Source: a virus (taxonomy: Duplodnaviria > Heunggongvirae > Uroviricota > Caudoviricetes). From it: a stretch of 43,156 nt of DNA. The DNA is taken from the IMG/VR virus record IMGVR_UViG_2802429223_000002. One strand, 5' to 3'. The notes under the pieces are model-generated. The model did no database searches. It saw only the letters and a list, made by a program, of their open reading frames with translations, and was not told where the DNA came from. The position numbers and the translations under genes were made by a program. Positions 27,256-43,156 of this stretch are shown piece after piece (the stretch's first letter is position 1; every line of letters begins with the position of its first letter).

Positions 27256-27699
27256 TCATCTTACACACTGCGTGCGAATGTATTGCTGCAAGCCTCGGAT
27301 CATTTTATCACTGGTTTCAATCCGCTTTCTAAGGGTGAAATAATCCCGTTGAGCGGTGTCAGTAAGTCTGGGGCTGGTGCCATCATCCACGCCGGAGGCG
27401 GCGGTGATTTTATGCATGTCTGGACAGACAGCTTTGACGCGCAGCCACTTACGCCCAGCAGAAACATCAGCACGAAGACTTTCGATAGTCGCGTTAGCAT
27501 CAGCAAGCTCCTTTGTGTATCTGGCGTCGAGTTCTGCTACATCACGTTGACGCTTCTGCATATCAGCGATAGTGGATGCGGCTTTGTCGCGTTGCTCTTT
27601 GTAGGCGATGGCGTTATCACGGTAATGATTAACAGCCCATAACAGGCAGACGATGATGCAGATAATCAGAGCGGAGATAATCGCGGTTACTCTGCTCAT
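27256..27699 (-). CDS. Rz: i-spanin Rz
   Basis: [34 protein letters not shown]... matches lambda Rz as recalled; start ATG 27699 abuts endolysin stop. Confidence 0.9.
27300..27506 (-). CDS. Rz1: o-spanin Rz1 (lipoprotein, embedded in Rz in another frame)
   Basis: Lipobox LLGVSGC followed by the proline-rich [24 protein letters not shown], as in lambda Rz1. Confidence 0.8.
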
Positions 27700-28193
27700 T
27701 GCTGCCCCCACAAACAGACTTCACGCTCAATCTCACGACGAGTCATCAGTCCTTTCCATTGCTTACCTCCAGCGTATGTCCAGCGACGTAGCTGATCACA
27801 TGCGCCTTTGATATCGCCATGGTTTATTTTGCGAAGAAGCGTCGATGTTCTGAAATTGCCAGCACCCACGTTGTAGACGAACGAGTAAAGAGCGCCGCGC
27901 GTTGTTTCCGGTATATCGACTTTGATGTACGGGTTAATTTGTCTGGCGACCGTGGCAAGGTCTTTATTCAGGAGGGCTTTGCATTCTGCTTCGGTATACG
28001 TTTTACCGAGCATGATGTCTTTTCCGGTGTGTCCGTGGCATACAGTCCATACACCAACAATATCTTTGTATGGTATGTAGCTGACACCTTCCAGACCATC
28101 GTTACCACTTGGGCCAGTGATTAACACTGATGCTATAGCAATTGCTCCGCCACCAATAGCAGCAGCAACTGCTTTTCGTAATGATGGAGGCAT
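27696..28193 (-). CDS. R: SAR endolysin (phage 21 R-type lysozyme)
   Basis: N-terminal signal-anchor-release segment [20 protein letters not shown] followed by lysozyme domain; matches phage 21 R as recalled. Confidence 0.9.
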
Positions 28194-28408
28194 TATTCAC
28201 CTCTCGCAGCCTTGCGCTTATCTTCTTTAATCTTGAAATAAAGGTTTGTCAGATACGTCAGCAAGCCAAATACCAGACTACCCAGCACACCTATTGCCGC
28301 CCACTGTGAGGGCGTGACTTTATCGAGCAACTGTAAAAACCAGTACCCGGCACTACCTGCTGAGGTGCCATAGGCGACACCCGTTGTTAACTTATCCATG
28401 GATTTCAT
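28193..28408 (-). CDS. S: pinholin S (phage 21 S-type) with dual-start motif
   Basis: [71 protein letters not shown]; two in-frame Met (M1, M4); GAGGTGGAG SD. Confidence 0.9.
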
Positions 28409-28446
28409 AACTCCACCTCGCAGATGCGGGTGCAAATTGAGAGAAT

Positions 28447-28478
28447 AAAAAATCCCCGACAATTCCAGATGTCAGCGG
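28447..28478 (-). terminator. possible tR'-like hairpin and U-tract just upstream of S
   Basis: Minus-strand CTGACA...TGTCGG imperfect stem followed by GGATTTTTTATT. Confidence 0.3.
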
Positions 28479-28675
28479 CCTTAAATATAAAAACAGGCAA
28501 ATGCCGAGGTCCGCTAATCGTTGCCACTATGAGCGCTGCGACGCCATTTCATCCAGCCAAGCTATCAGATACGGAAGCCGTGCTGCCGCTTTTACGGCAT
28601 TGTATTCACTATACTTATCTATTCTGATATCGTTAAATCAACAGAAATAACCAATATCAGAAGGAACGCATTAAT

Positions 28676-29224
28676 ATGGCGAACAATCTTTTTTATACAC
28701 TTGACAGGCAGCGCACACTGAAGTCAGGCATGAAAATTGAATTAGCAGAACCGTACTGCCCAATCGTTCCACTTCAGGCTCATACGAGCTCATTGTTTTC
28801 CGACGGTGTATCCCGGCATGCAAATAATCTTTTTTTCAACTACCACATAAACCTCGTCAGCTCAGACGAACGATTTGGAGCAATAATAGAAATACTACTG
28901 GAAGAACGAAGGAAATCACACTTCCCTGAAAAACCATCGCGCTTCCAATCAATTTTTGCATGTGAGTCTGTAAAAGAAACCGCCTGGTTCAGAGGCTTTT
29001 CAAAATCCCCACTTGACACCCCAATATTTCAAGTCAGCTCATCGTCGAACTATCATAGAGGTGATATGAATTTGTTAAATCTGAACTGCTCCCCAGTAGA
29101 AGTATCTCAGAGGCTGGATCTTTACTGGAAGGGTGAAACAACACAGATTTACGAAGGGTATCAACCATTCTGGGAAGTGCTCATTCCATTGCCAGTTATT
29201 ATTGGTGAAAGAATTATCGAATAA
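28676..29224 (+). CDS. hypothetical protein (Q-S island gene 1)
   Basis: 182 aa, AGGAA SD before ATG; AT-rich; antisense to the late transcript; no family recognised. Confidence 0.55.
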   Translation: MANNLFYTLDRQRTLKSGMKIELAEPYCPIVPLQAHTSSLFSDGVSRHANNLFFNYHINLVSSDERFGAIIEILLEERRKSHFPEKPSRFQSIFACESVKETAWFRGFSKSPLDTPIFQVSSSSNYHRGDMNLLNLNCSPVEVSQRLDLYWKGETTQIYEGYQPFWEVLIPLPVIIGERIIE

Positions 29225-29519
29225 TGGCTCTGACACCAGAATCATTTCCATAGCCGAACTGACGCTGACAGATTTTTAATTCGCTTATGGCTTTCTCCAT
29301 TGCTAATAGCGCGTCTTCAGTACGGTAGCAATCAACCTCAAGAACAAACGTTTTGAGATTGCTACTATCATTCCCGGCGAAAAGCGCATAGCTGGGTTGA
29401 CCAGTCTGATTCATCCCCCCCCCCTCAAACGACGAAACCCGCTCGACGGCGGGTTTAAGCCACGTGACAAAGTAACCACTCTTAACACGATACAATAGTT
29501 TTTGCGTACGCGTTAGCAT
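29214..29519 (-). CDS. hypothetical protein containing a G10 homopolymer tract (Q-S island gene 2)
   Basis: 101 aa ORF; the run of 10 C on the plus strand (29415-29424) encodes E-G-G-G; reading frame depends on tract length. Confidence 0.4.
   Translation of the reverse strand: MLTRTQKLLYRVKSGYFVTWLKPAVERVSSFEGGGMNQTGQPSYALFAGNDSSNLKTFVLEVDCYRTEDALLAMEKAISELKICQRQFGYGNDSGVRAIIR
29415..29424. repeat. C10/G10 homopolymer tract
   Basis: Ten consecutive C at 29415-29424 inside ORF 29214-29519. Confidence 0.95.
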
Positions 29520-29567
29520 TTTTGTTAAAGTATAAAAATGTAATTAAACCAGTATGTCATCACTACA

Positions 29568-30452
29568 ATGAAATGCATCCGAAAACATCCAGCAATAGCT
29601 TATACAGTAATTATTTTAGTTTTTGCCTTAATATACAATTTCACTTGGAGCGTCAATCCAGATTCTTTCATTAAAAACAACGTTCTCAACTCTACACCTG
29701 TATATGATGCCGTTAATTTAGCATATGCGAACAATGAGGTAAAAAAAGAAGCTCCTGTCAGTGTTTCGAGGGAAGTATTTGCAGAGCAAATTTTAACACT
29801 TACAAATCAATTCAATAAGATAATAATTGAAAACTTAGAACTTGAAAAAACATTATCTCAGCAGCAAGAAAAATTAAAACAAATTAGTGAAAGACAATCA
29901 ATAAAGTGGGGCGAAAACACCAAAAAATACATAGCAGACAGTTTGAAAGATTTACACAAAACGCTTATCACTAAAAATAGTGAACGTACTGCCATAGCAT
30001 CTTTAAAAAACAAAACAAATGAAAGTCAGATTAACATTATGCTGGCCGACAAAGATGAAGAAATAGCCAAAATAAACCTTGAAATAGCGTATAAAGAGAA
30101 TGATGCTAATGTCTATATCTTATCTCATGTCGGCGACTTTAACGATCCAATAATCGTTAATGAGCTTGACGCAATCAATAAAGAAATTGAGAAAACAAGA
30201 ACAAAAATAATAAACAATAAAAAGAAAATAATGGAGATAAGGAGTAAATCTCAATCTATGCTGGAGAAACTCAAAAAAGATGACCTTAACTTTTGGGATT
30301 TCTTATTTTATAGCATAGGAATATCTACAACGACCACCTTTGGTGATTTGTTAGCAAATTCAAGACTTATCAGACTGATAGTTTGCGTGCAACTTTTACT
30401 ATCAATTATAGTTTTAGCTAACGTAACTCAAAGATTTTTATCAAAAAAATAA
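29568..30452 (+). CDS. membrane protein: N-terminal TM helix, long coiled-coil, C-terminal pore-loop-like motif (Q-S island gene 3)
   Basis: 294 aa; TM segment AIAYTVIILVFALIYNFTW; Lys/Glu-rich heptad region; C-terminus FLFYSIGISTTTTFGDL then hydrophobic helix RLIVCVQLLLSIIVLANV; very AT-rich. Confidence 0.55.
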   Translation: MKCIRKHPAIAYTVIILVFALIYNFTWSVNPDSFIKNNVLNSTPVYDAVNLAYANNEVKKEAPVSVSREVFAEQILTLTNQFNKIIIENLELEKTLSQQQEKLKQISERQSIKWGENTKKYIADSLKDLHKTLITKNSERTAIASLKNKTNESQINIMLADKDEEIAKINLEIAYKENDANVYILSHVGDFNDPIIVNELDAINKEIEKTRTKIINNKKKIMEIRSKSQSMLEKLKKDDLNFWDFLFYSIGISTTTTFGDLLANSRLIRLIVCVQLLLSIIVLANVTQRFLSKK

Positions 30453-30460
30453 AAAACAAA

Positions 30461-30478
30461 GCCCTCAAAAATGAGGGC
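30461..30478. terminator. bidirectional terminator between island gene 3 and Q
   Basis: GCCCTCA / TGAGGGC 7-bp stem with AAAA loop, flanked by an A-run upstream and TAATTT downstream. Confidence 0.6.
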
Positions 30479-30489
30479 TAATTTAAACC

Positions 30490-30834
30490 TTAAGATAAGA
30501 ACGATAAAATCCCGTCCAAAAATCCTAGTGCAGTTTGCAATTCCTTTCTAATCGTGCCATCTGAACACCTTCTCTTCTTGGCAATAGTGCGTAATGAGAT
30601 ACCAATAACAAAGTGGGCAATTAGTAGCTCATATTCTTCTGGCTTATATTTACGCAACCTCGCCACACATCCATCAATCATAAGACCTTCATCATCATCA
30701 CACTGCATCCGGGACTTTTTGCCATGAGGTAAAAGCCCCTTGAAGCCTGCTGCTATCGGCTGCCAATCCACACTACTGTTATCTGCTGCAGCCCATGCTC
30801 CCCAGCGGTCCAAAACTTCATACATGTCACGCAT
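30490..30834 (-). CDS. late-gene antiterminator Q (QuuD / phage 82-type family)
   Basis: [35 protein letters not shown]...[20 protein letters not shown] resembles E. coli QuuD as recalled ([35 protein letters not shown]...); lies upstream of the lysis cassette. Confidence 0.85.
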   Translation of the reverse strand: [114 protein letters not shown]

Positions 30835-30851
30835 CAACTTTCTCCACAAAA

Positions 30852-31847
30852 TCAGGCCAGCACGCCAATTGCCAGCGCACGATCGATAAAACGAAATATC
30901 AACTCCAGCTGGGAGCCATACTTCTCTTCAAATGCCACGGTATCCGCATGCAGCTCGTCGTGATGCTTTCTGCACAAAGGCAACACAAAGAGGTCATGTG
31001 CTTTTGTACCCATTCCACCCTGACCGTGGCCTATCAGGTGGTGGGGATCATCAGCAGGCTTTCCACAACATGCACACGGCTGAGTCTTAACCCAGCGCGT
31101 GTACTTTTCATTAACCCAACGGCGACGTTTGGGGCGTAACATAAAAGACTCCGGCGACTCCGGATCCACTTCCAGCGACAGCACATTTTTCGCTTTATCC
31201 TGGATGATGCTGGTGGCAGGAACCGAAGGAACAAGGTCACTTTCCCGGGTGACAGACGGCACAACAGGCTTCGGTAATCTCAGTGCCTTACGGGCTGCAC
31301 TTTCCGGTAAGGCATCCGCCAGATCATTACGAATCAGCCACCAGCACAGTTCCGGCATTGTCACAACGTGACTATCATCAAAACCGAGAGCCCGACGCAC
31401 AACAGACAACACCCAGCGGGCACAGTTATCCGTTGCCATTGATTCCAGCCGTTCCGTGAACTGATCGCGCAGTTGGTTATCGCAGTGCCAGCACAGACGG
31501 ATTGCGCCAGGCGCGTGTCGCATTGTGGTCATGTTCTCGCTGTGCCAGTTGGAATGAGGCCACTGGCAGCCTTTTTCACGAAGTAACCAGCTTTCAAGAC
31601 ATTCCACGCCACCAGCACGACGGATCACTGCCTCATTGCGGAACACGGCCCGAACGGCAGGATCATCCGCAAGCGGTTGTGACGCCGCGGGAACGGCACC
31701 ACTGGCGAAAGATGAATAATGCTCCGGCTCAGGCTCCAGCAGGACACGCCCCTGCATAAACAGGGGCATCAGCTCTGAACCGGGCCTGAACAATACGATC
31801 CCCATACGCGGGGCAATTTCAGGGGTCAGTAGTGCTCTCACGGTCAC
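30852..31847 (-). CDS. DUF968-like phage protein with C-terminal HNH-like zinc-ribbon motif
   Basis: 331 aa; C-terminal CACCGKPADDPHHLIGHGQGGMGTKAHDLFVLPLCRKHHDELH; position between nin-region genes and Q. Confidence 0.55.
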   Translation of the reverse strand: MTVRALLTPEIAPRMGIVLFRPGSELMPLFMQGRVLLEPEPEHYSSFASGAVPAASQPLADDPAVRAVFRNEAVIRRAGGVECLESWLLREKGCQWPHSNWHSENMTTMRHAPGAIRLCWHCDNQLRDQFTERLESMATDNCARWVLSVVRRALGFDDSHVVTMPELCWWLIRNDLADALPESAARKALRLPKPVVPSVTRESDLVPSVPATSIIQDKAKNVLSLEVDPESPESFMLRPKRRRWVNEKYTRWVKTQPCACCGKPADDPHHLIGHGQGGMGTKAHDLFVLPLCRKHHDELHADTVAFEEKYGSQLELIFRFIDRALAIGVLA

Positions 31848-40307: not shown

Positions 40308-40657
40308 TGGAGCCATACAGCCTCACACTCGATGAGGCCTGTCATTTTCTCAAGATATCCAGACCGACTGCCATTAACTGGATACGCACAGGGCGTCTTC
40401 AGGCAACACGCAAAGATCCCACTAAGAATAAATCTCCTTACCTCACTACACGACAAGCCTGCATTGCGGCTCTTCAGTCTCCGCTGCATACTGTCCAGGT
40501 GAGCGCGGGTGATGGCATAACAGAGGAAAGAAAATGTCACTCTTCCGCAGAGGTGAAATATGGTACGCCAGTTTCACATTGCCGAACGGTAAAAGATTTA
40601 AACAGTCTCTTGGAACAAAGGACAAAAGGCAGGCGACAGAACTCCATGACAAGCTAA
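40307..40657 (+). CDS. xis: excisionase-like HTH protein (AlpA/Xis family)
   Basis: N-terminal [26 protein letters not shown]; TAATG overlap with upstream gene; ORF runs 124 nt into the int reading frame. Confidence 0.55.
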
Positions 40658-41697
40658 AGGCTGAAGCATGGCGGGTCAGCAAACTTGGTGAAATACCTGA
40701 TATAACATTCGAGGAAGCGTGTGTCAGGTGGCTTGAAGAGAAAGCACATAAAAAATCACTGGACGATGACAAAAGCCGGATCGGATTCTGGCTTCAACAT
40801 TTCGCAGGAATGCAACTAAGAGACATTACTGAATCAAAAATTTATTCAGCAATGCAGAAAATGACGAACCGGCGTCATGAGGAAAACTGGAAACTCAGGG
40901 CAGAAGCATGCAGAAAAAAAGGGAAACCTGTTCCAGAATACACGCCAAAACCAGCGTCCGTTGCAACGAAGGCTACGCATCTTTCATTTATAAAGGCCCT
41001 ACTAAGAGCCGCAGAGCGTGAATGGAAAATGCTGGATAAGGCACCAATTATTAAAGTGCCTCAACCAAAGAATAAACGGATCCGCTGGCTGGAGCCCCAT
41101 GAAGCACAAAGGCTGATTGATGAATGTCCGGAGCCATTAAAGTCTGTTGTTGAATTTGCACTGGCAACAGGCTTAAGACGCTCGAACATCATCAACCTTG
41201 AATGGCAACAAATAGATATGCAGCGCCGGGTGGCATGGATAAACCCGGAAGAGAGTAAATCAAACCGCGCAATTGGCGTTGCGCTGAATGATACTGCATG
41301 TCGCGTATTGAAAAAACAAATCGGGAATCATCACCGTTGGGTATTTGTGTACAAGGAAAGCTGTACCAAACCAGACGGAACGAAAGCGCCAACAGTAAGG
41401 AAGATGCGGTATGACGCAAACACAGCCTGGAAAGCGGCGCTGAGACGGGCTGGTATTGATGATTTCAGATTTCACGACTTGAGACACACCTGGGCAAGTT
41501 GGCTGGTTCAAGCCGGAGTCCCGTTGTCAGTGTTACAGGAAATGGGAGGCTGGGAGTCTATCGAAATGGTTCGTCGATATGCTCACCTTGCACCTAATCA
41601 CCTTACCGAACACGCACGGCAAATAGACTCGATCCTGAACCCATCGGTCCCAAATTTGTCCCAGTCAAAAAATAAGGAAGGTACTAATGATGTGTAA
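40534..41697 (+). CDS. int: tyrosine integrase (P4-type, tRNA-targeting)
   Basis: [15 protein letters not shown]-terminus typical of P4-like integrases; C-terminal catalytic region [15 protein letters not shown]...VRRYAHL; ends 15 nt from the tRNA 3' end. Confidence 0.9.
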
Positions 41698-41711
41698 CTT
41701 ATTGATTTAAA

Positions 41712-41787
41712 TGGTGCCGATAATAGGAGTCGAACCTACGACCTTCGCATTACGAATGCGCTGCTCTACCAACTGAGCTATATCGGC
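41712..41787 (-). tRNA. thrW: tRNA-Thr (anticodon CGU)
   Basis: Reverse complement reads GCCGATATAGCTCAGTTGGTAGAGCAGCGCATTCGTAATGCGAAGGTCGTAGGTTCGACTCCTATTATCGGCACCA: cloverleaf with CGT anticodon and 3' CCA; matches E. coli thrW as recalled. Confidence 0.95.
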
Positions 41788-41902
41788 CCTGAAAAGGACA
41801 TGTTCACGAACGTGAATCACGGTGGACAAGGTTAAAACTAACCGGGCGATGCGTCAATGGCCTTGTGAATCAAATGGCTACTTTTGCATCACCCGGTTTT
41901 AT

Positions 41903-43156
41903 TTACGCACGAACGGTGTAATCACCAATACCGATCCACTTGTAGGTGGTCAGCGCTTCCAGCCCCATTGGTCCGCGTGCGTGGAGTTTTTGCGTGCTTA
42001 CCGCCACTTCTGCGCCAAGACCAAACTGGCCGCCGTCGGTGAAACGTGTAGACGCGTTAACGTAAACAGCAGAGGAGTCCACTTCATTGACAAAACGCTG
42101 GGCATTGCGCATATCACGCGTCAGGATCGCATCGGAGTGTTGCGTCCCGTGTTCACGAATATGGGCGATGGCGTCGTCAAGATCGCTGACGATTTTGACG
42201 TTCAAATCTAACGACAGGAATTCATCGTCATACTCTTCCGCCTTAACAGCCACCACTTTCGCAGATCCTGCCTGCAACTGCGCCAGTGCCGCAGCATCGG
42301 CGTGTAACGTCACGCCGCTTTCCGCCATTTGCTTGCTTAACGCAGGCAGGAAGTTATCAGCGATGTTTTTATTCACCAGCAACGTTTCTACCGTATTGCA
42401 GGTACTCGGACGCTGGGTTTTCGCGTTGACGATCACTTTCAGGGCTGCAGAAATGTCAGCACTTTCATCAACGTAAATATGGCAGACGCCAATGCCGCCA
42501 GTGATCACCGGAATTGTCGACTGCTCGCGGCACAGCTTATGCAAACCAGCACCACCACGCGGGATCAGCATGTCGATGTATTTATCCATGCGCAGCATTT
42601 CACTCACCAGCGCGCGATCCGGATTATCAATCGCCTGCACTGCGCCTGCCGGTAAACCGCAGGATTTCAGGGCGTCCTGAATCACCGCTACCGTTGCAGC
42701 GTTAGTGCGACAGGTTTCTTTGCCGCCGCGCAGGATCACCGCGTTACCGGTTTTCAGACACAGCGAAGCGACATCAACTGTCACGTTCGGACGCGCTTCA
42801 TAAATTACACCTATAACACCCAGCGGCACGCGGCGACGCTCCAGACGCAGGCCGCTGTCCAGCACACCTCCATCAATCACCTGCCCTACCGGATCGGCAA
42901 GATTACACACCTGCCGCACATCGTCGGCAATGCCTTTCAGGCGCGCGGGCGTTAACGCCAGACGGTCAAGCATCGCTTCGCTAAGGCCATTGGCACGCGC
43001 GTCAGCAACATCCTGGGCGTTAGCATCGAGGATGCTTTCGCTCTGTGCTTCCAGCTCATCAGCGATCTTTTCCAGCACGCGATTTTTTTCGCGGCTGGAG
43101 AGTTGCGCTAATTTATACGAGGCTTGCTTCGCAGCAATGCCCATTTGTTCCAGCAT
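41903..43156 (-). CDS. proA: gamma-glutamyl phosphate reductase
   Basis: 417 aa, full length; starts [40 protein letters not shown], matching E. coli ProA as recalled; host gene flanking the prophage. Confidence 0.95.

What the first reader, a model, noticed from the sequence alone, without database searches (positions are those of the whole stretch)
30442..30560. Where is the late promoter? A strong terminator sits only about 12 nt after the Q stop codon
Immediately downstream of Q (minus-strand direction) is a hairpin followed by a long U-run (GCCCTCATTTTTGAGGGC TTTGTTTTTTATTTTTTT). For Q-dependent late expression a pR'/qut site is needed upstream of a terminator. Candidate -35/-10 elements (for example TTGGAC ... 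TATCTT) lie inside the last 60 nt of Q, which would make a very short (about 40-50 nt) terminated leader. Alternatively pR' lies just upstream of S, where a weaker hairpin-U tract exists at 28447-28478. Either way, the island is placed between Q and S and the geometry of late control differs from lambda.
Basis: inference. Interest (0 to 1): 0.4.

Follow-up and report, generated by a model that had tools for sequence, protein, structure and literature searches.

The report
Late promoter lies 1 kb downstream
The hairpin right after the phage Q gene is real, but it most likely just separates Q from a foreign gene on the other strand; the late promoter that Q most likely acts on, judged by comparison with related phages, sits 1 kb further on, a common and ordinary layout for this type of Q.

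Summary
An 8-bp GC-rich hairpin (30479-30460, minus strand) with a 16-of-18 T run starts 10 nt after the Q stop codon and is the strongest terminator-like site in 3.6 kb.

The interpretation does not hold. Q belongs to the Q21/933W family (PF06530). Its late promoter is most likely at 29516-29480, 1010 nt downstream of the Q stop:
- -35 CTAACG
- an 18-nt spacer holding GCGTACGC plus an A-tract
- -10 TATCGT
- +1 at A29480
- a roughly 50-nt leader with hairpin 29456-29435

The start site is anchored by homology to Sakai Sp5. There, the published pR' transcript length (258 nt) and RNase E site (+173) fit only the homologous A.

In 42 promoter variants, A-11 and T-7 are invariant. In 106 loci, the Q allele maps one-to-one onto the dyad motif in the spacer.

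Of 104 loci, 91 have 0.6-3 kb between Q and pR', mostly opposite-strand cargo. About a third have a hairpin plus T run just after Q.

The reported hairpin lies in the variable, AT-rich cargo cassette between convergent genes. It is best read as a junction terminator, not tR'. This is ordinary: a new member of a known kind.

The parts
30490..30834 (-). Antiterminator Q gene, Q21/933W family. The likely start is ATG 30834, because relatives begin MRD...; the mechanical ORF starts at TTG 30849.
   Evidence: Pfam PF06530 at E = 2.6e-45. PDB Q21 chains 6jnx/6p18 at E = 5e-4. PHROG 79. 48-56% identical to the 933W, DLP12-type and cdtI Q proteins.
30442..30479 (-). The finding: intrinsic-terminator-like hairpin (30479-30460) plus T run (30459-30442), lying between the convergent genes Q and cargo gene A. 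The T run overlaps the last codons of cargo gene A (SKK stop) on the other strand.
   Evidence: The stem folds equally well on the plus strand (-13.9 kcal/mol), but there the tail is only UAAUUUAAA. It lies inside the segment that differs between relatives.
29568..30452 (+). Cargo gene A, 294 aa, on the strand opposite to the late genes. Its C-terminal part resembles an ion-channel pore. The segment is AT-rich (GC 0.29-0.33 against 0.44-0.58 in the flanks).
   Evidence: ORF list. Pfam Ion_trans_2 at E = 2.4e-5. Composition. No PADLOC or PHROG match. Absent from 5426 complete E. coli genomes and from GTDB representatives. Present in 3 IMG/VR contigs.
29481..29530 (-). Predicted late promoter pR'. 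It comprises an A-rich upstream stretch (29530-29517), -35 CTAACG (29516-29511), the dyad GCGTACGC (29511-29504, at -31 to -24) with A-tract (29503-29499) as the putative Q-binding element, and -10 TATCGT (29492-29487).
   Evidence: Homology to the segment after Q in Sakai Sp5/Min27 and before S in 1W, 434B, SfII, mEp460 and others. A-11 and T-7 are invariant and T-12 is present in 38 of 42 unique promoter variants. The Q allele and the motif map one-to-one in 106 loci.
29427..29480 (-). Predicted late leader. It comprises +1 at A29480, a -10-like TACTTT at +7 to +12 (29474-29469, candidate sigma-dependent pause element), hairpin AAACCCGC-CGTCGA-GCGGGTTT (29456-29435), and an interrupted U tract, UUUCGUCGUUU, ending at 29427.
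   Evidence: The start site is anchored on Sakai Sp5: the 258-nt transcript and the +173 RNase E site of PMC7547250 fit only the homologous A. The hairpin folds at -12 kcal/mol. Some relatives keep +1 to +25 but carry unrelated hairpin-plus-U-tract sequences. Homology with L013 and several phages stops at 29435, at the hairpin.
29214..29424 (-). First late-strand ORF after the leader: 66 aa starting at ATG 29414, preceded by a G10 run (29424-29415). The 101-aa ORF listed from 29519 would begin upstream of the predicted start site, so its first 35 codons are probably not translated.
   Evidence: PHROG 10826 at E = 2.4e-40, full length. Sequence.
28676..29224 (+). Cargo gene B, 182 aa, DUF2441, on the opposite strand and inside the late transcription unit.
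   Evidence: Pfam DUF2441. PHROG 5663 at E = 1.8e-58. No match in complete E. coli genomes.
28448..28475 (-). Weak hairpin plus U6 at the junction between cargo B and the lysis cassette. It may be a back-up terminator or may be chance.
   Evidence: -10 kcal/mol, z = -1.05. Homology to S21-type lysis cassettes starts at 28447/28433.
28193..28408 (-). S21-type pinholin with a dual start (ATG 28408 and ATG 28399), the first gene of the lysis cassette.
   Evidence: Pfam Phage_holin_2_1 at E = 3.8e-35. 92-95% DNA identity to the holin-lysozyme regions of 434B, 1W and ev-series phages.

Best explanation
The window carries a lambdoid prophage whose Q antiterminator belongs to the Q21/933W family. Its cognate late promoter is neither next to Q nor next to S. 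It lies at 29516-29480 (minus strand), 1010 nt downstream of the Q stop.

How late control most likely works here (inferred by analogy with phage 21 and 933W/Sp5):
1. Sigma-70 RNA polymerase starts at A29480.
2. It probably pauses on the -10-like TACTTT at +7 to +12.
3. Q bound to the dyad GCGTACGC/A-tract in the -35/spacer region loads onto the paused polymerase.
4. Without Q, the transcript ends at the leader hairpin (29456-29435), giving an RNA of about 50 nt.
5. With Q, polymerase reads through into a 66-aa ORF, runs antisense across cargo gene B, and reaches the S21-type lysis genes.

The hairpin of the finding belongs to a roughly 1-kb AT-rich cargo cassette inserted exactly between the Q stop and pR'. 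It sits between the convergent genes Q and cargo gene A. Its probable role is to end unmodified early-right transcripts after Q, so that they neither run antisense into the cargo gene nor leak into the late operon. It may also provide a weaker 3' end for the cargo mRNA.

Shown here: the homology, the conservation pattern, the covariation, and the survey of layouts. Inferred: promoter activity, pausing, Q binding, and termination efficiencies in this prophage.
For: 1. Family. Q matches PF06530 and PDB Q21.

2. Paradigm. In the annotated phage 21 record, the -35 starts 7 nt after the Q stop, the Q-binding element lies in the spacer, and the terminator ends about 50 nt after the start site.

3. 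Homology. Window 29530-29427 aligns with the segment just after Q in Sakai Sp5/Min27 and just before the late genes in 1W, 434B, SfII, SfIV, cdtI, mEp460, Stx2a_1447 and Stx1_14040. The flanks on both sides are unrelated.

4. Experimental anchor. Sy et al. 2020 (PMC7547250) mapped the Sp5 pR' start 258 nt from the tR' 3' end and placed an RNase E cut after GU at +173. Both numbers fit only the A of GATAAG-A-GTGG, and both published coordinates shift by the same 142 nt between genome versions. The homologous base in the window is A29480.

5. Promoter signature. In 42 unique variants, -11 is A in 42 of 42, -7 is T in 42 of 42, and -12 is T in 38 of 42, while -10 to -8 vary freely.

6. Cognate pairing. 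In 106 loci, each Q allele class has its own dyad motif at about -31 to -21, with no exception. For the window's class, 27 loci with 13 different Q-to-pR' gap lengths all carry GCGTACGC. The exact motif occurs once in the window.

7. Layout survey. Of 104 loci, 13 have the start site 10-51 nt after the Q stop and 91 have it 631-3048 nt after. In 82 of those 91, the ORFs in the gap lie mainly on the opposite strand. In 29 of 91 there is a hairpin plus T run within 90 nt after the Q stop, with many unrelated sequences. The plaque-forming phage mEp460 has the same geometry: a terminator 5 nt after Q and pR' 1.57 kb downstream.

8. Terminator role of the leader hairpin. Relatives keep +1 to +25 but substitute unrelated hairpin-plus-U-tract sequences.

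9. Cassette membership of the post-Q hairpin. Homology with other window-type Q loci ends at 30530-30506 and resumes at 29516-29533. GC falls to 0.29-0.33 across this stretch.
Against: - There are no transcript data for this prophage.
- By consensus alone, the proposed pR' scores only 7 of 12 with an 18-nt spacer.
- The leader U tract is interrupted (UUUCGUCGUUU) and fails the scan's terminator criterion.
- In Sakai Sp5 the homologous hairpin lies inside a transcript that was mapped to end at +258, so it may be leaky.
- The Q-binding element and the pause element are assigned by position and covariation only.
- The surveyed loci are not independent. Q and pR' are linked, and the DNA pattern used for the survey fixed positions -6 to +9.
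Confidence: 0.82

Rival explanations
1. pR' lies inside the last 60 nt of Q (TTGGAC-16-TATCTT). The hairpin at 30479-30442 is tR', giving a terminated leader of about 40 nt that Q reads through.
For: The hexamers exist with an acceptable 16-nt spacer. The Q21 family does use a very short leader in which the terminator hairpin starts a few nt after +1 (phage 21). In 933W/Sp5 the -35 overlaps the end of Q. By consensus score it ties with the homologous pR' at 7 of 12.
Against: - There is no dyad motif or A-tract between these hexamers, and the allele-specific motif occurs only at 29511-29500.
- The conserved leader AGTGGTTAC... is absent there.
- The 3' end of Q and the hairpin fall in the segment that is replaced by unrelated sequence in relatives with the same Q allele, whereas the 29530-29427 module is retained in all of them.
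- A late transcript from there would have to run antisense through all of cargo gene A.
Confidence: 0.05
2. pR' lies just upstream of S, and the weak hairpin plus U tract at 28475-28448 is its terminator.
For: A hairpin plus U6 exists there on the late strand. One promoter-like match (TTAACG-17-TATAGT, 28636-28608, minus strand) lies upstream of it.
Against: - The hairpin is no better than shuffled sequence (z = -1.05).
- There is no Q-family leader or dyad motif there.
- Promoter-like matches in the region are barely above chance (13 found, 8.5 expected).
- The site is the junction between cargo B and the S21 cassette, and homology to other phages starts only at 28447.
- Relatives with the same lysis cassette carry the conserved pR' module instead (1W and 434B).
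Confidence: 0.03
3. The module at 29530-29427 is a decayed remnant, and the prophage no longer has working Q-dependent late control. The post-Q hairpin is then just the end of the early operon.
For: The -35 is poor (CTAACG) and the spacer is 18 nt. The leader U tract carries a T-to-C change relative to the SfII type. Two cargo cassettes interrupt the region. One lies on the opposite strand inside the late unit.
Against: - The same -35, spacer and -10 occur in the plaque-forming phage mEp460 and in the phage SfII.
- A-11 and T-7 are intact.
- Q, S, R and Rz are open reading frames with full-length family matches.
- Three IMG/VR contigs carry the region at 96-99.7% identity.
Confidence: 0.08

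Closest known systems
Late-gene control region of phage 21 (pR', QBE, SDPE, terminator; Guo et al. 1991, as annotated in OL657228; Shi et al. 2019, PMC6606751; Yin et al. 2019 preprint, 10.1101/651190)
   Same: The Q family is the same (PF06530; PDB Q21 hit). The promoter has a presumed Q site in the -35/spacer region. The leader is about 50 nt and ends in a hairpin plus U tract.
   Different: There is no DNA homology to the phage 21 promoter. The phage 21 QBE is a direct repeat of TGAGCA at about -27 to -12, whereas the motif here is an 8-bp inverted repeat at -31 to -24 followed by an A-tract. In phage 21 the -35 starts 7 nt after the Q stop; here 1 kb of cargo intervenes.
pR' of the Stx phages 933W / Sakai Sp5 and its short transcript StxS (Sy et al. 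2020, PMC7547250)
   Same: The sequence is homologous from about -37 to the first hairpin. The start site is experimentally mapped at the homologous base. The Q proteins are 48% identical.
   Different: In Sp5 the promoter overlaps the Q stop codon, the dyad is TTTACGATCGTAAA, and the mapped 3' end is a second terminator at +258. In the window, cargo separates Q from pR', the dyad is GCGTACGC, and no strong second terminator is seen.
DLP12 prophage / phages 434B and 1W: quuD - nmpC (opposite strand) - S21-type lysis genes
   Same: The layout is the same: Q, then hairpins, then an opposite-strand cargo gene, then the conserved pR' leader about 130 nt before the holin.
   Different: The cargo differs (the porin nmpC), as do the Q allele (49% identity) and the dyad (TTTACGTACGTAAA). 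The window also has a second cargo cassette between the leader hairpin and S.
Phage morons (an autonomous cargo gene with its own promoter and terminator; Juhala et al. 2000, recalled from memory)
   Same: Cargo gene A is AT-rich, flanked by a terminator hairpin, differs between otherwise similar phages, and lies between two conserved phage modules.
   Different: Its own promoter was not identified here, and expression from the prophage is untested.

Membership tests
Q21/933W-family Q-dependent late control module (Q + pR' + QBE + SDPE + leader terminator) | Q protein of the PF06530 family | tested here: met
   Pfam E = 2.6e-45 over the full length. PDB Q21 at E = 5e-4. 48-56% identical to the 933W, DLP12-type and cdtI Q proteins.
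Q21/933W-family Q-dependent late control module (Q + pR' + QBE + SDPE + leader terminator) | Sigma-70 promoter positioned to start the late leader | tested here: met
   TATCGT ends 7 nt before the base homologous to the mapped Sp5 start. A-11 and T-7 are invariant in 42 variants. The -35 is weak (3 of 6) and promoter activity was not measured.
Q21/933W-family Q-dependent late control module (Q + pR' + QBE + SDPE + leader terminator) | Q-binding element within the promoter, specific for the cognate Q | tested here: inconclusive
   The dyad GCGTACGC plus A-tract at -31 to -19 covaries one-to-one with the Q allele in 106 loci. There are no binding data, and the symmetry differs from the phage 21 QBE.
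Q21/933W-family Q-dependent late control module (Q + pR' + QBE + SDPE + leader terminator) | A -10-like sigma-dependent pause element in the initial transcribed region | tested here: inconclusive
   TACTTT at +7 to +12 has the form TAnnnT. Sp5 has TACATT, but many relatives have TACTTC, which lacks the last T. Pausing cannot be tested here.
Q21/933W-family Q-dependent late control module (Q + pR' + QBE + SDPE + leader terminator) | Intrinsic terminator shortly downstream of the start site | tested here: inconclusive
   An 8-bp hairpin at -12 kcal/mol lies at +25 to +46. Relatives substitute unrelated hairpin-plus-U sequences at the same place. However, the window's U tract is interrupted and fails the scan criterion, and the Sp5 homologue is read through at least in part.
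Q21/933W-family Q-dependent late control module (Q + pR' + QBE + SDPE + leader terminator) | Q-dependent read-through into the late genes | not testable with these tools
   This needs reporter fusions or in vitro transcription with Q.
Intrinsic (Rho-independent) terminator: the finding's hairpin at 30479-30442 | GC-rich stem-loop followed at once by a U-rich tract, at the 3' end of a gene | tested here: met
   8 pairs with 5 G-C, a 4-nt loop, and 16 T in the next 18 nt. It starts 10 nt after the Q stop. z = -3.85.
tR' of the late operon: the finding's hairpin at 30479-30442 | Preceded by the cognate pR' with a Q-binding element and a pause element | tested here: not met
   There is no dyad motif, A-tract or conserved leader upstream of it. 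The module is found at 29530-29427 instead.
Moron / cargo cassette: 30505-29534 | A variable, compositionally distinct insert between conserved phage modules, with its own terminator | tested here: met
   Homology breakpoints lie at 30530-30506 and 29516-29533. GC is 0.29-0.33 against 0.44-0.58 in the flanks. At least 13 different gap lengths occur in loci with the same Q allele. Its own promoter was not identified.

The most novel reading that the evidence does not exclude
In the 933W/QuuD branch of the Q21 family, the Q-binding element may be an allele-specific inverted repeat (8-14 bp at about -31 to -21) followed by an A-tract, rather than the direct repeat seen in phage 21. The few base pairs between the Q stop codon and this element may be a preferred insertion point for 0.6-3 kb of opposite-strand cargo, so that Q and its cognate promoter are usually far apart. 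If so, Stx prophages reported as 'lacking pR'' or having an 'altered qut' when they carry window-type Q alleles (PMC10562709, PMC6266700) may simply have been missed, and their late promoters could be predicted from sequence.
Probability: 0.5. Interest if true: 0.5.

Novelty: new member of a known kind. Interest (0 to 1): 0.25.

Why it matters
For this window, the result settles where late transcription most likely starts. It also shows which of the inserted genes lie inside the Q-controlled unit (the 66-aa ORF, and cargo B in antisense) and which lie outside it (cargo A).

More generally, annotators looking for pR' directly after Q will miss it in most phages with this Q type. Published analyses of Stx prophages with related Q alleles have reported a missing pR' (PMC10562709, PMC6266700). 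The strict pairing of Q allele with a dyad motif gives a cheap, testable prediction of Q specificity. That matters for predicting Shiga-toxin and lysis-gene expression.

Tried and rejected
- Rfam scan of 28000-31000: only sub-threshold chance hits (RyhB 23 bits against a gathering score of 55).
- I first suspected a Q82-type Q and tried to match the phage 82 pR' features (pause at +25, GCC at +15 to +17). I dropped this once PDB and Pfam placed Q with Q21/933W.
- Exact-pattern scan for the post-Q hairpin in GTDB genomes found nothing. A protein-based scan for cargo gene A in GTDB also found nothing.
- Megablast of both cargo cassettes against complete E. coli genomes found nothing.
- PADLOC gave no defence-system match for the three cargo ORFs.
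- A perfect TATAAT at about 30397-30392 (minus strand, downstream of the hairpin) lacks any acceptable -35 and lies in AT-rich coding sequence. I treated it as chance.
- I looked for an N-like antiterminator in the early region by Pfam and found none. I therefore make no claim about how early transcripts pass the post-Q hairpin during lytic growth.
- Stem covariation in the leader hairpin is uninformative because the stem is nearly invariant. The informative signal is the non-homologous replacement in some relatives.
Full report
**1. What is at the coordinates**

Late genes in this window are on the minus strand.
- The ORF at 30849/30834-30490 is an antiterminator Q: Pfam PF06530 at E = 2.6e-45 and PHROG 79.
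- Ten nucleotides after its TAA stop (30492-30490) lies the hairpin AGCCCTCATTTTTGAGGGCT (30479-30460), followed by TTGTTTTTTATTTTTTT down to 30442.
- It is the best terminator-like site in 27600-31200. It folds at -14.5 kcal/mol against -4.9 +/- 2.5 for shuffles, z = -3.85 (one search gave z = -3.76).

**2. Which Q family**

The protein matches the solved Q of phage 21 (6jnx, 6p18; E = 5e-4). It is 48-56% identical to the Q proteins of 933W-type Min27, DLP12-type phage 1W, cdtI and SfIV, and about 25% identical to Q21. The Yin et al. preprint lists PF06530 for the Q21/933W family. It prints the same number for Q82, which looks like a typing error.

In the richly annotated phage 21 record OL657228:
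- the pR' -35 starts 7 nt after the Q stop;
- the Q-binding element lies in the spacer;
- the terminator ends about 50 nt after the start site.

So a very short terminated leader is normal for this family.

**3. A conserved module 1 kb downstream of Q**

Searching phage and E. coli collections with Q plus its downstream DNA returned two separate pieces. One was Q itself. The other was a stretch of about 100 bp at window 29530-29413.
- In Min27 and Sakai Sp5, that stretch lies directly after, and partly overlaps, the end of Q.
- In 1W, 434B, SfII, SfIV, cdtI, mEp460, Stx2a_1447, Stx1_14040 and E. coli 04-00955, it lies just upstream of the late genes (S, a methylase, or stx). It is separated from Q by one to three genes on the opposite strand.

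Alignment A1 and the extracted segments show similarity starting at about -37 and running to the hairpin. The flanks are unrelated. BLAST breakpoints against nine relatives put the ends of homology at 30530-30506 on the Q side and 29516-29533 on the promoter side. Further breakpoints fall at 29435 or 29413, and homology resumes at 28447/28433 near S.

**4. Anchoring the transcription start**

Sy et al. 2020 (PMC7547250) mapped the Sakai Sp5 pR' start by dRNA-seq and the tR' 3' end by Term-seq, 258 nt apart. They placed an RNase E cut within GU|AUU at +173.

In the Sakai sequence (L008), the A of GATAAG-A-GTGGTTAC is exactly 258 nt from the last U of the second terminator's U run. The U before the GU|AUU cut falls at +173 when counted from it. 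Both published coordinates (given for NC_002695.1) differ from NC_002695.2 by the same 142 nt.

That A lies 7 nt after the hexamer TATCAT, which sits 16 nt after TTTACG.

The homologous base in the window is A29480. Around it are:
- -35 CTAACG (29516-29511);
- an 18-nt spacer;
- -10 TATCGT (29492-29487).

**5. Conservation pattern of a real sigma-70 promoter**

Forty-two unique promoter variants also carry the leader hairpin. Among them, -11 is A in 42 of 42, -7 is T in 42 of 42, and -12 is T in 38 of 42. Positions -10 to -8 vary freely. Positions -53 to -38 are A-rich. Positions -6 to +9 were fixed by the search pattern and carry no information.

**6. Cognate pairing with Q**

I classed the Q gene upstream of each locus by tBLASTn and the -38 to -17 region by motif. 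Eight Q classes mapped onto eight dyad-symmetric motifs with no exception in 106 loci:

| Q class | Motif | Loci |
|---|---|---|
| Window type | GCGTACGC | 27 (13 different Q-to-pR' distances) |
| cdtI/SfIV type | GCGGnCCGC | 31 (14 distances) |
| DLP12/1W type | TACGTACGTA | 33 |
| 933W type | TACGATCGTA | 6 |
| Four rarer alleles | each its own palindrome | 9 in total |

Every motif is followed by an A-tract. The leader downstream is common to all classes.

Because the cargo between Q and the motif differs so often, the pairing has survived many recombination events. I read the motif as the Q-binding element. This is inference: there are no binding data, the loci are not independent, and the phage 21 element is a direct repeat, not an inverted one.

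The exact motif GCGTACGCAAAA occurs once in the 43-kb window, at 29511-29500.

**7. The leader**

From A29480 the predicted RNA is AGUGGUUACUUUGUCACGUGGCUUAAACCCGCCGUCGAGCGGGUUUCGUCGUUU.
- TACTTT at +7 to +12 is a -10-like candidate pause element.
- The hairpin at 29456-29435 folds at -12 kcal/mol.

Several relatives keep +1 to +25 but carry unrelated hairpin-plus-U-tract sequences at +35 to +60 (L025, L065, L077, L083, L135). This argues that a terminator is what selection maintains there.

Caveats:
- The window's U tract is interrupted (UUUCGUCGUUU) and fails the scan criterion.
- The homologous Sp5 hairpin lies inside a transcript mapped to +258.

Efficiency is therefore open. The only other late-strand hairpin plus U run before S is the weak one at 28475-28448 (z = -1.05). 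It sits exactly at the junction between cargo B and the lysis cassette.

**8. What the reported hairpin is**

It lies inside the variable, AT-rich segment (GC 0.29-0.33 against 0.44-0.58 in the flanks). This segment also carries cargo gene A (29568-30452, plus strand, 294 aa). That gene has a weak Ion_trans_2 match and no PADLOC or PHROG match.

The hairpin sits between convergent genes. Its T run overlaps the last codons of cargo gene A. The stem also folds on the plus strand (-13.9 kcal/mol), but the tail there is poor.

In the survey of 104 loci:
- 13 have the start site 10-51 nt after the Q stop;
- 91 have it 631-3048 nt after (the window: 1010);
- in 82 of those 91, the gap ORFs are mainly on the opposite strand;
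- 29 of 91 have a hairpin plus T run within 90 nt after the Q stop, with many unrelated sequences that often start 3-14 nt after the stop.

The plaque-forming phage mEp460 has AGGGGGAATTACCCCCCT-T7 5 nt after its Q stop, and its pR' lies 1.57 kb further on.

The hairpin is thus one instance of a recurrent junction terminator. Its likely role, which is inferred, is to stop unmodified early-right transcripts from running antisense into the cargo gene and on towards the late operon.

**9. Consequences for the 'island'**

There are two cassettes.
- Cassette 1 (about 30505-29534) contains the terminator and cargo gene A. It lies upstream of pR' and so outside the late transcript.
- Cassette 2 (29412-28448) follows the leader hairpin. 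It holds a 66-aa ORF on the late strand (ATG 29414; PHROG 10826 at E = 2.4e-40) and a DUF2441 gene on the opposite strand (PHROG 5663).

IMG/VR contig L013 has the same Q, hairpin, cargo A and pR', but homology stops at 29435. A different small ORF, a methylase and a lambda-type holin follow. This shows that the leader hairpin is a module boundary.

**10. Context and limits**

The host gene at the window's end is proA, at 92.4% identity to E. coli. The host is therefore probably an Escherichia species other than E. coli. Neither cargo cassette occurs in 5426 complete E. coli genomes.

Only the comparative evidence separates them. No experiment on this prophage exists.

**11. Verdict**

Both proposed promoter placements are unsupported. 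The late promoter is most likely at 29516-29480. The layout is the common one for this Q type. I rate this a new member of a known kind, of low interest in itself. It has a moderately interesting by-product: the allele-specific dyad motifs, and the insertion point between Q and pR'.

Noticed in passing
window 29511-29499; loci L001-L137: The Q allele class maps one-to-one onto a short inverted-repeat motif at about -31 to -21 of pR', followed by an A-tract: eight classes, 106 loci, no exception. Examples are GCGTACGC for the window's Q, GCGGnCCGC for cdtI/SfIV, TACGTACGTA for the DLP12 type and TACGATCGTA for the 933W type. The phage 21 Q-binding element is a direct repeat, so the binding geometry may differ in this branch.
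   Followed up: partly
window 30490-29517, and 91 of 104 surveyed loci: The few base pairs between the Q stop and the pR' -35 appear to be a preferred insertion point for 0.6-3 kb of mostly opposite-strand cargo. Examples are nmpC in the DLP12 type and various hypothetical genes in SfII, cdtI and Stx1/Stx2 phages. Only 13 of 104 loci keep the compact arrangement seen in phage 21 and 933W.
   Followed up: partly
L008 (Sakai Sp5) 670-705: In Sp5, a canonical hairpin plus U7 at +27 to +55, homologous to the window's leader hairpin, lies inside the 258-nt pR' transcript mapped by Sy et al. 2020. Either it is leaky without Q, or a product of about 55 nt escaped detection.
   Followed up: no
window 29479-29464; most leaders: A small 5' hairpin, GUGGU...GCCAC (+2 to +17), is predicted in most leaders of this family. 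In the window it includes two G-U pairs. Its role, if any, is unknown. It overlaps the candidate pause element.
   Followed up: no
window 29424-29415; L012 about 640-650: A G10 homopolymer run lies directly before ATG 29414 of the 66-aa late-strand ORF (PHROG 10826). The otherwise 99.7%-identical contig L012 has G9. The length change alters the spacing between the ribosome-binding site and the start codon.
   Followed up: no
window 29568-30452: Cargo gene A encodes a 294-aa protein with an N-terminal hydrophobic segment, a long charged middle part, and a C-terminal pore-like segment (GISTTTTFGD; Ion_trans_2 at E = 2.4e-5). It has no PADLOC or PHROG match. It is absent from complete E. coli genomes and GTDB representatives and was found in only three IMG/VR contigs. 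It could be a prophage-expressed membrane protein, but I have no evidence for its function.
   Followed up: partly
Literature: PMC10562709 section 3.3; PMC6266700 section 3.1: Two papers report Stx prophages that 'lacked the late promoter PR'' or had an 'altered qut site'. One of them carried a Q that is 47.6% identical to Q933 and had CDSs between Q and stx. That description fits the window-type arrangement, in which pR' is present but displaced and carries a different -35/dyad region.
   Followed up: no
window 40534-43156: The prophage ends with an integrase gene (40534-41697, plus strand) next to host proA. The proA gene is only 92.4% identical to that of every E. coli genome matched, which suggests a non-coli Escherichia host.
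   Followed up: partly
L002 (mEp460 record LR595868) 1560-2549: The DUF968/HNH gene upstream of Q (window homologue 30852-31847) is annotated in that record as 'Phage antitermination protein Q'. This looks like an annotation carried over from its neighbour.
   Followed up: no
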